DNA of 64,000 bases from Candidatus Syntropharchaeum caldarium (GCA_001766815.1 LYOS01000002.1:39777-103776); one strand, 5' to 3'; positions 34,647 through 43,566 are shown, counted from the first letter of the stretch. Made by a program: numbers and translations. The notes: generated from the letters alone by a model not told the origin.

Positions 34647-35381
34647 TTATGGGTAGGTATAACTTTCCACATAGGCGTTTTCGTAGCCAGACTCTGTCAC
34701 GTTGTCACCGAGTGCCTGGAAGTTATCGACTGTCCACTCGCCATCCTCATCCTCTTCGGCATCGAAATCAAGGACAACATTCTTCGTCCATGAGATGTTG
34801 ACACCAACGCGGGTATGACATCCAATGCATGCCTCGTTCGAGTCGATCATAAGGTCATCATCGATCGCCTGCTGGATGAATGCGTTGTGTGCGGCCTTCG
34901 TCCCATTTCTGCCACCGGCATCATAGGAGTACTGGTAAGGATCGTTTGTCTCATCGCCGTTGTAATCACCAACACCATCTGGCTGATCGAATCCACCCGC
35001 GTGTGGGTAACCACCGAGCCCATCATTTCCATACTCATGGCAGATCATACATGCGATCGTCTCTGCTGCGTGCGAGGTCGTACCTGGGGTTGAACCTGAG
35101 GTATCACCTGATGCAACACCTGTTGGCTTCTGCACCTGTGAGGAGTTCACCCTGTGACAGTCACACCCAGGGGATGCAAGGCCTTTGTGCACACCATTAT
35201 CAGAATCGATCATCTCTGCGTTGATATCGCCATGACACTTCACACAGGGTAGCTGGTTTCCATCATCACTCAGGTTATACCAGCTGTGCTGTCCACTGAA
35301 GAGTGCTGCTGTCTGTGGGAGTGCGAATATTCCGATTGCTACGATTGCAACCAGTAGCAGTCCAGTTGTATTCCTTCTCAT
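34647..35381 (-). CDS. membrane-anchored multihaem c-type cytochrome (3 CxxCH + 1 CxCH)
   Basis: N-terminal TM anchor. CVKCH, CMICH, CIGCH plus 'GCDCH'. GGAGGTGA 5 nt upstream. Paralogue of 42871..43566. Confidence 0.85.
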   Translation of the reverse strand: MRRNTTGLLLVAIVAIGIFALPQTAALFSGQHSWYNLSDDGNQLPCVKCHGDINAEMIDSDNGVHKGLASPGCDCHRVNSSQVQKPTGVASGDTSGSTPGTTSHAAETIACMICHEYGNDGLGGYPHAGGFDQPDGVGDYNGDETNDPYQYSYDAGGRNGTKAAHNAFIQQAIDDDLMIDSNEACIGCHTRVGVNISWTKNVVLDFDAEEDEDGEWTVDNFQALGDNVTESGYENAYVESYTYP

Positions 35382-35671
35382 CTATCTCACCTCCTTCTCA
35401 GTTGTTCAGATTTTGATTTCTGGGTTTCTCTCGTCTCCAGATTTTTTAGTTTTGAAAGAGGTGGTACGAGATTTTAAATTTTATCGCATCTCTTCCTCTT
35501 ACCTCTACGTCTATCTACTCGCGTATAGTTTATAAAAGAGATGGGTGTGATCATTTAGAAAAAAAGTTAATATTAATGATTAATACTCACTTTTGACCGA
35601 TTTTAATAAATATAACATAGTTATTTCATAATTGTAATAAAAAATCCCTAAGAGATAGTCCGGGACGAAAG

Positions 35672-36136
35672 TTATATCCTCGCAGGTCCTGCATCTGCAA
35701 ACCCCTGCCGTTGACCTGTCCCCGCCTCTTTCTCAAGGGCCTTTGGGTTGAAAAGCAGTTTCAGGACGTTTCTGGCGTGCTCCCGTGTTCTTGCATCCGC
35801 AAGCTTCACAAGTTCTTTATCATCCGCAGCCTCGTCTTCATGTACAAACACCTCAATTATGTGCTTATTTGTCAGAAGCTGCGCATGGATTATCCCAAGT
35901 GATGCCTCGTGCGCACACTGCTTGTCAATCTCCTCAGGTCCTGGCATACCAAGCGCGATCACGATATCACACCCCATCTCCTCGATCAATTTCTTGGAAG
36001 CGACAGGGAGGTCCTTCACACCGGGCACTGTGTAGCGTTCAATTCTGACAGATGCGCCTCGCTTAAGCTCCTCGATCGCAGCCTTTCCCATATCATACCG
36101 TGCAAATGCAGTATCTGCAACACCAACCTTTGCCAT
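35672..36136 (-). CDS. ribC: riboflavin synthase, archaeal type
   Basis: '[14 protein letters not shown]', '[14 protein letters not shown]', 'CAHEASLG', '[14 protein letters not shown]', '[10 protein letters not shown]' closely follow the archaeal (MJ1184-type) enzyme. Confidence 0.85.
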
Positions 36137-36166
36137 CAGATAAAAGACGCTCCTTCTGATTTAAAA

Positions 36167-40879: not shown

Positions 40880-40897
40880 TTTTATTCCACGCCGTAT

Positions 40898-42679
40898 TCA
40901 GCTCAGATGGAAATACCTGTATGCATCTCCCGTATCCTCAATCTCACCGCCTTTTGAGACAAAGTCGGCGTACTTTCGATTGACAAATTCATTACAGATA
41001 GTCTCAGGATCGCCTGTCATCAGAATTTCGCCACGGTGTATCAGCAGTGCCCGGTGTGCAAGCTCCTTCACCGCATCCAGTTGATGGCTCACGAGGATTA
41101 TTGTGAGGTTGTGCTCCTTGTTGAGGGTTTTTATTGCATTTATACATTTACGCAGCGAGATAGGATCGAGATCTCCGAAAGGCTCATCGAGCAAGAGGAC
41201 CTCTGGCTTCTCCGTCATGTGAAGAGCAAGCGCAACCCGTATCTGCTCACCTGCACTGAGTTCATATGTATAGTGATCCATGAGAGAAAGAGGAAGATCG
41301 AGCGCTTCAAATATGGGTTTCATCCGCTTTTTAGCTTCGTCTGCAGGTATCGTTGGGAATAACTTCCTCAGAATCCCTGGATCAAGTTTCAGCTCCCTGA
41401 GCATGTCTTTCATCTCATCTTCTGGCAGATCTGCAAGTCTATAAAGTACATCCAGCTTCACGTCACTTAGTCCCATTTCTCTCGCCCGTTCGACCACCTC
41501 AGGCAGGAATCGCACGTCCTTTAGCCCAAGTTTCTGCTCAAAGAGGTGCAGCACGATTTCATAGTGCGTGAGCGCAAACTCCTGATGTAACGTTGAGATG
41601 TTAAGACGCGCCTTTACAGCATCATAACCATAGGTACAGATATTTGTCCAGCGCTCTTCACCACCATCGTTGATCCTGTAGGTAACCTCACCAAACTGAG
41701 GAGGTTCAAGTCCTGCAAGCAACCTGATCAGTACTGTCTTTCCAGCAGCACATGGTCCAACGAGTGCAAGTATCTCGCCTTCGTAGATATCGAAGTTGAG
41801 ATTTTTCATCTGGATCGTCTCGATAAACTTTGCACCTGATGTGGTTATCTGGTAACGCTTCCAGAGGTTGGTGAGGCGCATCTTCGGCACTTCTCGTGGT
41901 ATCGATGGCTCAACGGGTTGATCGATCTTTGCAACAAACTTTTTAATGATCTCATCTGGTTTCCCCTCATCAACCACCTTTCCTTCCTCAATCCAGAGCA
42001 CCCTATCAGCGAGAGTTTCGTGTATTTCTGGCATATGAGAGACAAATACAACAGTAACACCAGCATTCTCATTTATTTTTTTTATCGCATCAAGCATCAT
42101 CCCTCGACCAACAGGATCTATCATGGTGGCTGGTTCATCTACAAGAAGAACACGTGGATTTGCTGCGAGCTGTCTCGCAAGCAGAACACACTGCTTCTCA
42201 CCGCCGCTGAGGATATTGTAGTAGTAATACTTCTTATCCAACATGCCAACAATATCAAGAATCTCGGAGGCCCGTTTGAAGAGTCGTTTATAGTCGTTTG
42301 AACCTGTTGTAGGTATCTCTTCAAAACCTGTCTCAAGCTTTCCCAGTTTTCGCATCACATTATTTATCACACTCTCAGGCCATAGTGCAAACGAACGTTG
42401 CAGATGCAGTGCGGTTATCTTCTGGAGTTCAAGCTGTTCATTGGAATTAGAGTCAGGTGTGAGTGTGATACCATCAACCCTTACAGATCCTTCTTTAAAT
42501 GATTCCACGCCCCTTAAAATTCGCAAGAGTGTGGTTTTTCCTGCACTGCTCCTTCCTAATATACCCAGAACTTCACCCTCATCGACTGAGAACGAGACGT
42601 TCTCAAGAGCAGTGTGTTCTTTCTCAATCTTTGAGATCTGATAAGTCTTCGTTAAATTTTCTACTTCGATGATCTTCAT
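40898..42679 (-). CDS. second component-A2-like double ABC ATPase (paralogue without Cys4 insertion)
   Basis: 'GILGRSSAGKTTLLRILRGVE' (A2-like first P-loop), 'LSGGEKQCVLLARQLA', second cassette 'GPCAAGKTVL' / 'LSAGEQIRV'. GGAGG upstream. First gene of the operon. Confidence 0.75.
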   Translation of the reverse strand: MKIIEVENLTKTYQISKIEKEHTALENVSFSVDEGEVLGILGRSSAGKTTLLRILRGVESFKEGSVRVDGITLTPDSNSNEQLELQKITALHLQRSFALWPESVINNVMRKLGKLETGFEEIPTTGSNDYKRLFKRASEILDIVGMLDKKYYYYNILSGGEKQCVLLARQLAANPRVLLVDEPATMIDPVGRGMMLDAIKKINENAGVTVVFVSHMPEIHETLADRVLWIEEGKVVDEGKPDEIIKKFVAKIDQPVEPSIPREVPKMRLTNLWKRYQITTSGAKFIETIQMKNLNFDIYEGEILALVGPCAAGKTVLIRLLAGLEPPQFGEVTYRINDGGEERWTNICTYGYDAVKARLNISTLHQEFALTHYEIVLHLFEQKLGLKDVRFLPEVVERAREMGLSDVKLDVLYRLADLPEDEMKDMLRELKLDPGILRKLFPTIPADEAKKRMKPIFEALDLPLSLMDHYTYELSAGEQIRVALALHMTEKPEVLLLDEPFGDLDPISLRKCINAIKTLNKEHNLTIILVSHQLDAVKELAHRALLIHRGEILMTGDPETICNEFVNRKYADFVSKGGEIEDTGDAYRYFHLS

Positions 42680-42870
42680 GTTAAAACCTCCTTAGAATCC
42701 TCAGAATCATCATAATCTTAACCTGTTCATCATATATAAGAAGATCTATTTTTGGATTGAGGAGGGTTAATCATTTAATTTTTCTAAAGAGCTGTCATGT
42801 CCACAACCTTTATATCTCGCACATGCGATAAGTTAATGTAAGGTAAAGAGTCAGAAATGATCAGCGAAAG
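42680..42870. promoter_or_regulatory. divergent promoter region between the MCR-activation operon and the cytochrome operon
   Basis: 191-nt AT-rich spacer. TATA-like 'TTTATATC' at 42809-42816 (+), 55 nt before ATG 42871. 'TTATATAT' on the minus strand at 42732-42739, about 55 nt before ATG 42679. Confidence 0.3.
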
Positions 42871-43566
42871 ATGAAAAAACACACACCGCTTCTGCTCATG
42901 ATCGCCGTACTTGCGATCGGTATATTCGCACTCCCCCAGAGCGTTGCGCTTTTCTCAGGTCAGCATTCATGGTATAATCTCACTCCACAGGGTAACGATG
43001 TACCCTGTGAAAAATGTCATGGCGACATCGCTTCAGAGATTGCATCAAGTGGTGCACACAAAAATATCGAGTGCGGCGGATGTCACAGAGCAGATGCAAG
43101 GGTTGGCTATGCCGGGGACTGGGAGGGGGATGTGGATCCAGGACAGGGTGCACACGCGGCATCGACTATTGAGTGTATGATCTGCCATGACAGGGGCACA
43201 AACTTCACACACTCCAATATCGGAAGTGATGAGTGTTCTGACTGTCACACCTCGCCTTTTGTGGCGCCTGGGGCAGGAGGCTTCAATCTGACTGATCCTT
43301 CTGTCTTGCCGTCTGATACCGGCACAAAAGCCGCACACATGCAGTTTGTCCATGACGCGATCAACGAGACGCTCATGGAGGGTGCAAACGAAGCCTGTAT
43401 AGCATGTCATACGCATGTGGGTGTCAACATCACATGGACGAAGAACGTGGTGCTCAACTTTGAAGCATCAGAGAATGAGACTGGAAGCTGGTCGATCCCT
43501 GAGTTTTCAGCAACAGGGGATAATGTGACAGAATCAAACTATACAAACACCTGGGTAAATACTTAA
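42871..43566 (+). CDS. membrane-anchored pentahaem c-type cytochrome
   Basis: N-terminal TM anchor. CEKCH, CGGCH, CMICH, CSDCH, CIACH. Paralogue of 34647..35381. Confidence 0.85.

What the first reader, a model, noticed from the sequence alone, without database searches (positions are those of the whole stretch)
34647..43566. Diverged paralogous membrane-anchored cytochromes bracket the MCR-activation operon in opposite orientation
**Seen:**
- Gene 34647..35381 (minus) and gene 42871..43566 (plus) encode 244- and 231-aa proteins.
- By my hand alignment 36 of the first 53 residues are identical ('[21 protein letters not shown]....GN..PC.KCHGDI').
- The C-termini are also conserved ('EACI.CHT.VGVNI.WTKNVVL.F.A.E.E.G.W....F.A.GDNVTES.Y').
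- Nucleotide identity is only patchy, for example a shared ATATTCGCACTCCC.
- The right copy heads the giant-cytochrome operon, 13 nt before it. The left copy follows ribC after a 290-nt AT-rich gap.

**Inference:** an ancient inverted duplication places a small membrane cytochrome on each side of the activation operon. These are candidates for membrane-side electron entry or exit points feeding the large extracellular cytochrome.
Basis: partly seen in the sequence, partly recalled or inferred. Interest (0 to 1): 0.55.

Follow-up and report, generated by a model that had tools for sequence, protein, structure and literature searches.

The report
Two nanowire-type cytochrome paralogs, coincidentally placed
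The two small cytochrome genes are real, ancient paralogs of a known archaeal family whose solved member forms extracellular heme "nanowires", but their position on either side of the MCR-activation operon is a genome-arrangement accident, not a functional unit.

Summary
The window is Ca. Syntrophoarchaeum caldarius. Both proteins match AvECN (PDB 8E5G), the Archaeoglobus veneficus extracellular cytochrome nanowire subunit, at E=8e-49 and 2e-37. This small multiheme family is already described in ANME, Syntrophoarchaeum and Archaeoglobales. The hydrophobic N-terminus is most likely a cleaved Sec signal peptide, with a signal peptidase I site conserved in 122 homologs, not a membrane anchor. 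The two copies belong to separate subfamilies that split before Syntrophoarchaeum and ANME-1 diverged. Elsewhere these genes sit in same-strand tandem arrays. None of 46 related loci has MCR-activation genes nearby, and three AtwA loci in other lineages have no cytochrome nearby. Only one roughly 83%-identical relative keeps the right-hand junction. New details: the left subfamily has a conserved CxCH at the heme-2 site; an 87-nt scar of a giant-cytochrome tail lies beside the left copy; the right copy plus giant cytochrome recurs at 97-98% identity at a different locus in another Syntrophoarchaeum lineage. Overall the finding is ordinary.

The parts
34647..35381 (-). Left copy (OFV67984.1), the L-type AvECN-like cytochrome. 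It has 3 CXXCH motifs (C46, C111, C185) plus CDCH at residue 73, and a predicted signal peptide at residues 1-26.
   Evidence: 8e5g E=7.9e-49; 44% identity to AvECN; L-type clade
42871..43566 (+). Right copy (OFV67992.1), the R-type AvECN-like cytochrome. It has 5 CXXCH motifs (C46, C68, C102, C122, C176) and a predicted signal peptide at residues 1-26.
   Evidence: 8e5g E=2.2e-37; 38% identity to AvECN
43580..50482 (+). Giant 2300-aa cytochrome with 17 CXXCH motifs, four Golvesin_C domains, discoidin-type domains, TSP3 repeats and a PGF-CTERM archaeosortase anchor. It is probably co-transcribed with the right copy.
42797..42870 (+). Promoter and 5' leader of the right copy, with a TATA-like TTTATA at -62. 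The homology shared with the sp. 12019_3-like contigs starts exactly here.
34490..34575 (-). Non-coding scar. It is 91% identical (79 of 87 aligned positions, including a 1-nt gap) to the last 87 nt of the giant gene, which cover the PGF-CTERM coding part, the stop codon and 3 further nt. The 1-nt deletion shifts the frame and there is no start codon.
50399..50485 (+). The intact tail of the giant gene that the scar matches. The two copies form an inverted repeat around 34576..50398.
33514..34443 (-). TM309 (OFV67983.1), a Trp-rich polytopic membrane protein with no conserved Cys or His. Its homologs lie downstream of these cytochrome arrays in ANME-1 and ANME-2. It is probably the '8x TMH' maturation-associated protein of Chadwick et al. 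2022.
35382..35671 (-). AT-rich spacer (32% GC) between ribC and the left copy. It has a T-run right after ribC, a TATA-like TTTTATA at -156 and a GGAGGTGA ribosome-binding site, which suggests the left copy has its own promoter.
   Evidence: read from the sequence; function inferred
35672..42679 (-). The operon between the two copies: RibC, Mmp3, Mmp17, component A2 (528 aa), a McrC-like protein with DUF2098, an Mmp7-like protein and an A2-like ATPase (593 aa). These are cytoplasmic MCR-activation genes and are not part of the cytochrome system.

Best explanation
The two genes are members of two old subfamilies (L-type and R-type) of the AvECN / 'MmcX' / 'small ANME MHC' family of secreted multiheme c-type cytochromes in Ca. 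Syntrophoarchaeum caldarius. The likely mechanism, inferred from homology, has four steps. (1) The proteins are exported by the Sec pathway. (2) Signal peptidase I cleaves at (T/S)-x-(A/S)|LFSGQH. (3) The Ccm system attaches the hemes outside the membrane. (4) The mature proteins carry electrons beyond the membrane through bis-His heme chains. They may do this as polymeric filaments like AvECN, or as relay cytochromes between the membrane and the cell surface. The right copy is co-expressed with a 17-heme, PGF-CTERM-anchored giant cytochrome and probably passes electrons to or from it. The position of the two genes on either side of the MCR-activation operon results from rearrangement of an ancestral tandem cytochrome cluster and has no functional meaning. 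Shown here: homology, motif conservation, synteny patterns, and the scar. Inferred: signal-peptide cleavage, filament formation, and the direction of electron flow.
For: Both proteins match PDB 8e5g_A over almost their full length (E=7.9e-49 and 2.2e-37). Identity to AvECN is 44% and 38%. 8E5G is the A. veneficus nanowire AvECN (PMC12954529; PMC11176372). Q31, H32, Y35, all conserved heme-motif Cys/His, and H95 and H156 are invariant in 122 homologs, and H63 is at least 90% conserved. At the signal peptidase site, -3 is T/S in 121/122 and -1 is S/A in 116/122, with P22 at -5 in 118/122. A cluster-encoded archaeal signal peptidase I (TIGR02228, above cutoff) is present in 12 related loci. Neither copy has a C-terminal TM segment or anchor. 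Tandem arrays and separate L and R clades are seen. No MCR-activation genes lie near any of 46 family loci, and no cytochrome lies near AtwA in three other lineages. The right copy and giant gene stay together in L001, L054, L055, L056 and L057. The literature already reports this family as widespread and very highly transcribed in ANME and Syntrophoarchaeum (PMC9012536).
Against: Filament formation is known only for AvECN and was not tested here. The AF2 model was too poor to use (pLDDT 54.5). The signal-peptide core (A12, G17-P22) is unusually conserved for a segment that is discarded, which leaves room for a retained anchor or a special sorting role. The left copy has CDCH instead of CXXCH at heme site 2, and the right copy has a fifth heme absent from AvECN, so either could behave differently from AvECN. 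The window has no cluster-type signal peptidase. The right-hand junction (A2-like ATPase next to the right copy) is conserved in one relative at about 83% nucleotide identity, so the arrangement is not entirely unique to this genome.
Confidence: 0.75

Rival explanations
1. One reading: the N-terminal helix is an uncleaved signal anchor, and the two proteins are membrane-tethered, CymA-like entry or exit points that move electrons between the membrane carrier pool and the giant cytochrome.
For: One strongly hydrophobic N-terminal segment is present (KD19 maximum 2.2-2.4). AF2 predicts a confident helix over residues 5-33. The hydrophobic core is unusually conserved across the family. Chadwick et al. 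note that small MHCs could in principle act like CymA. The right copy directly precedes the giant cytochrome.
Against: A conserved signal peptidase I site directly follows the helix. A signal peptidase gene lies in the related clusters. The solved homolog is an extracellular filament. There is no NapC/NrfH-family membership: NrfH scores 23 bits against a cutoff of 134. The deposited annotation calls both proteins 'secreted'. Chadwick's CymA suggestion concerned MHCs with C-terminal anchors or PGF-CTERM, which these proteins lack.
Confidence: 0.15
2. The flanking position reflects a functional link: the cytochromes supply or remove electrons for ATP-dependent reductive activation of the alkyl-CoM reductase.
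For: Physical proximity in this genome. The right copy and the A2-like ATPase share a 191-nt divergent intergenic region, and this junction is kept in L056.
Against: c-type cytochromes mature and act outside the cytoplasmic membrane, whereas A2, McrC and the Mmp proteins act in the cytoplasm (established knowledge). No linkage is seen in 46 family loci or three AtwA loci. The same right-copy-plus-giant cassette works from a QueC-adjacent site in another lineage, and the shared DNA starts only 74 nt upstream of the ATG.
Confidence: 0.03
3. The pair arose by a recent local inverted duplication within this genome.
For: The genes are in opposite orientation 7.5 kb apart. An 87-nt inverted repeat (the scar and the giant gene's tail) shows that recombination has acted on this region.
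Against: Nucleotide identity is only 58.6% and third-position identity 0.40. Each copy is closer to ANME-1 proteins of its own subfamily than to the other copy: 51-66% identity for L-type relatives and up to 67% for R-type relatives, against 49% between the two copies.
Confidence: 0.02

Closest known systems
AvECN, extracellular cytochrome nanowire subunit of Archaeoglobus veneficus (F2KMU8, PDB 8E5G; Baquero et al. 2023, cited via PMC12954529)
   Same: Homologous over the full length, including the signal peptide, the LF.GQH.WYN mature N-terminus, heme motifs 1, 3 and 4, the distal His residues and the C-terminal beta-rich part. The left copy shares the four-site layout.
   Different: The left copy has CDCH where AvECN has CGECH. 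The right copy has an extra fifth CXXCH (CSDCH) inserted between hemes 3 and 4. Polymerisation is unproven for either. Identity is only 38-44%.
'MmcX' clade of 3-5-heme cytochromes (Suzuki et al. 2024, PMC11176372)
   Same: The same family. That paper's tree already includes Methanophagales, Syntropharchaeales, ANME-2 and Archaeoglobales members and links them to AvECN. It also predicts a signal peptide.
   Different: That work did not separate the L-type (CxCH) and R-type subfamilies, nor examine this locus.
'Most broadly distributed small MHC group' plus the signal peptidase and '8x TMH' maturation genes of ANME (Chadwick et al. 2022, PMC9012536)
   Same: The taxonomic range matches, as do the multiple paralogs per genome and the neighbouring signal peptidase and Trp-rich unannotated membrane protein.
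   Different: In the window only the membrane protein (TM309) remains beside the left copy, and the signal peptidase and further paralogs are missing. That TM309 is the '8x TMH' protein is inferred from its properties. The accessions were not found in the supplements.
Geobacter OmcS / OmcE cytochrome filaments
   Same: A functional analogy: secreted bis-His multiheme subunits that polymerise, some with axial His ligands supplied by the neighbouring subunit.
   Different: No sequence relationship is known.
CymA / NapC / NrfH membrane-anchored tetraheme quinol dehydrogenases
   Same: Small size, several hemes and one N-terminal hydrophobic helix.
   Different: There is no family-level match: NrfH scores 23 bits against a cutoff of 134. 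A conserved peptidase site follows the helix.

Membership tests
AvECN-type cytochrome nanowire subunit family (PDB 8E5G; MmcX / small ANME MHC) | Full-length sequence homology to AvECN | tested here: met
   phmmer against PDB: left copy E=7.9e-49 (residues 6-209), right copy E=2.2e-37 (residues 8-231). BLASTP identity 44% and 38%.
AvECN-type cytochrome nanowire subunit family (PDB 8E5G; MmcX / small ANME MHC) | Four c-type heme-binding CXXCH motifs at the AvECN positions | tested here: inconclusive
   The right copy has all four plus a fifth. The left copy has three canonical motifs plus CDCH (C-x-C-H) at the heme-2 position, and this is conserved as PGC[D/N]CHRV across the L-type subfamily. 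Whether CxCH binds heme is unknown.
AvECN-type cytochrome nanowire subunit family (PDB 8E5G; MmcX / small ANME MHC) | Conserved distal histidines for bis-His ligation | tested here: met
   H32, H95 and H156 are invariant and H63 is at least 90% conserved in 122 sequences (right-copy numbering). All align with His in AvECN. Their role as ligands is inferred.
AvECN-type cytochrome nanowire subunit family (PDB 8E5G; MmcX / small ANME MHC) | Cleavable N-terminal secretion signal and no other anchor | tested here: met
   The sequence shows n-, h- and c-regions with a -3/-1 site conserved in 116-121 of 122 sequences, and no C-terminal TM segment or PGF-CTERM. This rests on sequence pattern only. Cleavage itself cannot be tested with these tools.
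AvECN-type cytochrome nanowire subunit family (PDB 8E5G; MmcX / small ANME MHC) | Polymerises into an extracellular heme filament | not testable with these tools
   The AF2 monomer model was unusable (pLDDT 54.5). No heme-aware multimer prediction or experiment was available.
NapC/NirT/NrfH/CymA membrane-anchored quinol dehydrogenases | Family-level sequence match | tested here: not met
   NrfH TIGR03153 scores 23.2 bits against a cutoff of 134.2 for the right copy and gives no hit for the left copy. There is no Pfam NapC/NirT hit.
NapC/NirT/NrfH/CymA membrane-anchored quinol dehydrogenases | N-terminal helix retained as the membrane anchor | tested here: inconclusive
   The helix is present but is followed by a conserved signal peptidase I site.
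MCR-activation gene cluster (A2/AtwA, McrC, Mmp3, Mmp7, Mmp17) | Conserved co-location of the cytochromes with these genes across genomes | tested here: not met
   0 of 46 family loci have these genes within 10 kb. 0 of 3 AtwA loci have a cytochrome within 10 kb. The only exception is one close relative at about 83% nucleotide identity that keeps the right-hand junction.
ANME-type MHC cluster (small MHC array, signal peptidase, 8x TMH protein) | Cytochrome array followed on the same strand by a signal peptidase I and the Trp-rich membrane protein | tested here: inconclusive
   The TM309 homolog lies 203 nt downstream of the left copy on the same strand. However, there is no signal peptidase anywhere in the window, and the closest TM309 relatives (70-71% identity) are not next to cytochromes.

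The most novel reading that the evidence does not exclude
The L-type subfamily may be a distinct nanowire or relay subunit with a heme site that has not been described before. It carries a conserved C-x-C-H motif (PGC[D/N]CHRV) in place of CXXCH at heme 2. It normally acts together with the R-type gene that follows it in tandem in most genomes, which could mean a mixed two-subunit filament. In addition, the right-copy-plus-giant module may be an electron-export cassette that moves between Syntrophoarchaeum lineages as a promoter-to-stop-codon unit.
Probability: 0.2. Interest if true: 0.55.

Novelty: already known. Interest (0 to 1): 0.2.

Why it matters
Syntrophoarchaeum oxidises butane and must pass the electrons to a sulfate-reducing partner, so its extracellular cytochromes are central to how the consortium works. 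Assigning these two genes to the AvECN nanowire family, with the right copy paired to a 17-heme surface-anchored giant cytochrome, gives concrete candidates for that wiring. The family and its role have already been proposed in the literature, however, and the feature that made the finding stand out (bracketing the MCR-activation operon) has no functional support. The side observations could justify small follow-up studies: the conserved CxCH motif, the exchange of the cytochrome cassette between lineages, and the length variation of the giant gene.

Tried and rejected
1. The AF2 model of the right copy, built with a 122-sequence alignment, had pLDDT 54.5 and pTM 0.28. It was too poor to use, so no fold search was run and the sequence match to 8e5g was relied on instead.
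2. The original AvECN paper (Baquero et al. 2023) could not be retrieved by DOI or PMC id. The mature N-terminus of AvECN and its ligand assignments therefore could not be read directly.
3. A literature search for a 'CXCH' heme motif returned only two papers, unrelated by title.
4. A search for 'Syntrophoarchaeum' with 'cytochrome nanowire' found nothing.
5. The accessions OFV67983, OFV67984, OFV67992 and OFV67993 were not found in the Chadwick et al. supplements.
6. I considered that the scar might be the left copy's own former PGF-CTERM tail, or the tail of an ANME-cluster gene. I rejected both. The apparent 'PGF' hits in family members are the internal motif TIPGFTAGG, and no gene upstream of TM309 in other loci has such a tail. 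The scar is also 91% identical to the giant gene's tail, whereas the two small genes are only 58.6% identical.
7. I first thought the window had acquired the right-copy-plus-giant cassette. I revised this after L056 proved collinear with the window at a uniform 83% across the junction.
8. AtwA gave no ortholog from sp. 12019_3. The baseline divergence to that lineage therefore rests on the left-copy ortholog alone.
9. No tRNA lies at the cassette borders.
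Full report
**Observation.** Every factual statement in the finding checks out.
- The two ORFs are at 34647..35381 (-) with 244 aa and 42871..43566 (+) with 231 aa.
- BLASTP gives 49% identity and E=2e-73.
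- Exactly 36 of the first 53 residues are identical, and the C-terminal block is conserved.
- Codon-aligned nucleotide identity is 58.6%. Third-position identity is 0.40, close to saturation, and no segment stands out as recently converted.
- The 14-mer ATATTCGCACTCCC occurs only in these two genes, against 0 expected by chance.
- The 13-nt gap to the 2300-aa cytochrome gene is correct, as is the 290-nt spacer (32% GC) after the ribC gene (TIGR01506).
- The genes in between are indeed MCR-activation genes. Component A2 (528 aa, TIGR03269, 559 bits against a cutoff of 517), Mmp17, Mmp3 and RibC score above their cutoffs. An Mmp7-like protein, a McrC-like protein and a second A2-like ATPase score below cutoff.
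The right copy has five CXXCH. The left copy has three CXXCH plus CDCH.

**Identity.** The window comes from Ca. Syntrophoarchaeum caldarius. The left copy is OFV67984.1, the right copy is OFV67992.1 and the neighbouring membrane protein is OFV67983.1, all on a 410,801-bp contig.

Both cytochromes match one solved structure, 8e5g_A, over nearly their whole length. The left copy scores E=7.9e-49 with 44% identity, and the right copy E=2.2e-37 with 38% identity. 8E5G is AvECN, the tetraheme subunit of the Archaeoglobus veneficus extracellular cytochrome nanowire (PMC12954529; preprint 10.1101/2023.06.12.544705).

The family is already in the literature:
- Suzuki et al. 2024 describe an 'MmcX' clade with 3-5 heme motifs in Methanophagales, Syntropharchaeales, ANME-2 and Archaeoglobales, and link it to AvECN (PMC11176372).
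- Chadwick et al. 2022 describe what is most likely the same group: the most widespread small MHC group of ANME, Syntrophoarchaeum and Archaeoglobales, with several paralogs per genome and very high transcript levels (PMC9012536).

**Anchor or signal peptide.** Both proteins have a single hydrophobic N-terminal segment and no C-terminal anchor. Across 122 homologs this segment is followed by a textbook signal peptidase I site:
- Pro at -5 in 118/122.
- T/S at -3 in 121/122.
- S/A at -1 in 116/122.
- Then the near-invariant mature N-terminus LFSGQH.WY, whose His32 is invariant and is probably an axial heme ligand.

In 12 related ANME loci, a gene between the cytochromes and the membrane protein is an archaeal signal peptidase I (TIGR02228, 57.2 bits against a cutoff of 51.85). 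Since AvECN is extracellular as well, a cleaved signal peptide is the better reading. The hydrophobic core is unusually conserved, though, and cleavage was not tested.

**Age and normal arrangement of the paralogs.** A scan of species-representative genomes returned 46 loci.
- Family members almost always lie in same-strand tandem arrays of 2-6 genes.
- Genes with the left copy's layout (3 CXXCH plus PGC[D/N]CH) form one clade. It contains S. caldarius, Syntrophoarchaeum sp. 12019_3, S. butanivorans and many ANME-1 genomes.
- The right copy falls in a separate five-heme clade with ANME-1 members. This comes from a neighbour-joining tree without bootstrap, but the identity values agree with it: L-type relatives are 51-77% identical to the left copy and R-type relatives are up to 67% identical to the right copy, against 49% between the two copies.
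- The duplication therefore predates the split of Syntrophoarchaeales and Methanophagales. It is not a local inverted duplication.
- In 10 of 12 L-type genes elsewhere, the next gene is another family member on the same strand, 2-85 nt away.
- The split, inverted layout in the window is thus a derived exception.

**The bracketing claim.**
- None of the 46 loci has Mmp3, Mmp7, Mmp17, McrC or RibC within 10 kb. Only generic ABC ATPase similarity of 23-32% was found.
- Starting instead from the 593-aa A2-like AtwA homolog, orthologs in Methanospirareceae (63% identity), Methanophagales and Argoarchaeum have no cytochrome within 10 kb.
- The left-copy ortholog in sp. 12019_3 (83.6% nucleotide identity) has unrelated flanks.
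- The one exception is L056, a metagenome contig collinear with window 40219..44536 at a uniform 83.4%. It runs across the junction between the A2-like ATPase and the right copy. The right-hand junction is therefore inherited among close relatives, as ordinary vertical descent predicts.
- On orientation, the left copy is co-directional with the operon and downstream of it. It appears to have its own promoter: a T-run follows ribC, a TATA-like box sits at -156 and a strong ribosome-binding site precedes the start. Only the right copy is divergent from the operon.

**The right copy and the giant cytochrome.** The giant protein has 17 CXXCH motifs, four Golvesin_C domains, discoidin-type domains, TSP3 repeats and a PGF-CTERM tail. 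The right copy and a giant gene stay adjacent in L001, L054, L055, L056 and L057.

In the sp. 12019_3-like contigs, this pair is 96.5-98.6% identical to the window over 42797..46134 and 48914..50468. The homology starts 12 nt upstream of the TATA box and ends 14 nt before the stop codon. The flanks are unrelated: QueC, a 2-phosphosulfolactate phosphatase-family gene (Pfam 2-ph_phosp), another paralog, and an MmeI-type methylase.

The left-copy ortholog in that lineage is only 83.6% identical, and L056 is uniformly 83% identical across the window's junction. The window's copy therefore looks native, and the sp. 12019_3 copy looks like a recent transfer. This baseline rests on few genes. The length of the giant gene varies between strains (2300, 1703-1707 and 1196 aa), with the differences in the central part that lacks heme motifs.

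**The left copy's surroundings.** About 70 nt after the left copy's stop lies a non-coding stretch at 34490..34575. It is 91% identical (79 of 87 aligned positions) to the last 87 nt of the giant gene, including the stop codon and 3 further nt, and it carries a 1-nt frameshifting deletion. It is the only other copy of that sequence in the window. Unlike L001, it shares the window-specific last codons of the giant gene. It is a scar of a giant-type gene or of a recombination event. With the intact tail, it forms an inverted repeat around 34576..50398.

Next on the same strand is TM309, a Trp-rich polytopic membrane protein with no conserved Cys or His. Homologs follow the cytochrome arrays and the signal peptidase in at least 12 ANME-1 and ANME-2 loci. 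It fits the '8x TMH' protein that Chadwick et al. assign to MHC maturation. Its closest relatives (70-71% identity) are not next to cytochromes, and one follows thioredoxin and CcdA genes. The left-copy locus therefore looks like a reduced version of the ANME-type cluster.

**Verdict.** The paralogy is real. The family assignment (AvECN-type secreted cytochromes involved in extracellular electron transfer) is strong and already published. The 'membrane-anchored' label is probably wrong, and the bracketing of the MCR-activation operon is incidental. Interest is low. The conserved CxCH motif, the cassette exchange and the tail scar are minor new details.

Noticed in passing
window 35154..35165 (codons for C73-D-C-H76 of the left copy); also loci L005, L009, L013, L020, L024, L025, L028, L029, L032: All L-type family members carry PGC[D/N]CHRV, a C-x-C-H motif, where AvECN and the R-type proteins have CXXCH for heme 2. 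It is conserved across Syntrophoarchaeum and ANME-1, so it is not decay. A literature search found no described CXCH heme-attachment motif.
   Followed up: partly
window 34490..34575 (-) and 50399..50485 (+): A frameshifted scar, 91% identical over 87 aligned positions to the giant cytochrome's PGF-CTERM tail, lies between the left copy and TM309. With the intact tail it forms an inverted repeat around a 15.8-kb segment. A near-identical strain contig (L053) breaks inside this repeat.
   Followed up: yes
window 42797..50468 compared with L001, L054 and L055: The right-copy-plus-giant module is 96.5-98.6% identical to a copy in Syntrophoarchaeum sp. 12019_3-like genomes at a different locus next to QueC. 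The boundaries are sharp, running from the promoter to 14 nt before the stop codon. The left-copy ortholog there is only 83.6% identical, so a recent lateral transfer is likely.
   Followed up: partly
window 46134..48914 (central part of the giant gene): The central region of the giant cytochrome is absent from, or different in, relatives whose proteins are 1703-1707 aa and 1196 aa long. The gene is length-polymorphic, and the variable central part carries no heme motifs.
   Followed up: partly
window 33514..34443 (-): TM309 is a conserved partner of these cytochrome arrays in ANME-1 and ANME-2. The usual order is cytochromes, signal peptidase I, TM309, then a tetraheme protein of about 176 aa. 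It has conserved Trp residues and no conserved Cys or His, and it probably corresponds to the '8x TMH' protein of Chadwick et al. 2022. In L052 it follows thioredoxin and CcdA genes.
   Followed up: partly
residues 7-26 of both small cytochromes (window 35304..35363 and 42889..42948): The signal-peptide core is unusually conserved across 122 homologs: A12, G17, I18, F19, A20, L21 and P22 are each at or above 90%. This hints at recognition by a dedicated peptidase or sorting factor.
   Followed up: partly
window 50504..52797 (-): Directly downstream of the giant cytochrome are a cohesin plus lamin-tail-domain protein (436 aa) and a protein with a borderline dockerin match (323 aa; 22.8 bits against a cutoff of 22.9). 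Cohesin and dockerin proteins have been noted in ANME genomes as possible cell-surface scaffolds.
   Followed up: no
window 37621..39207 (-) and 40898..42679 (-): The operon encodes two A2-type ABC ATPases. The 528-aa protein scores as true component A2 (559 bits against a cutoff of 517). The 593-aa protein, which the finding treats as atwA, scores below cutoff (291 bits), and its nearest non-self relative is only 63% identical. The McrC-like protein carries a C-terminal DUF2098.
   Followed up: partly
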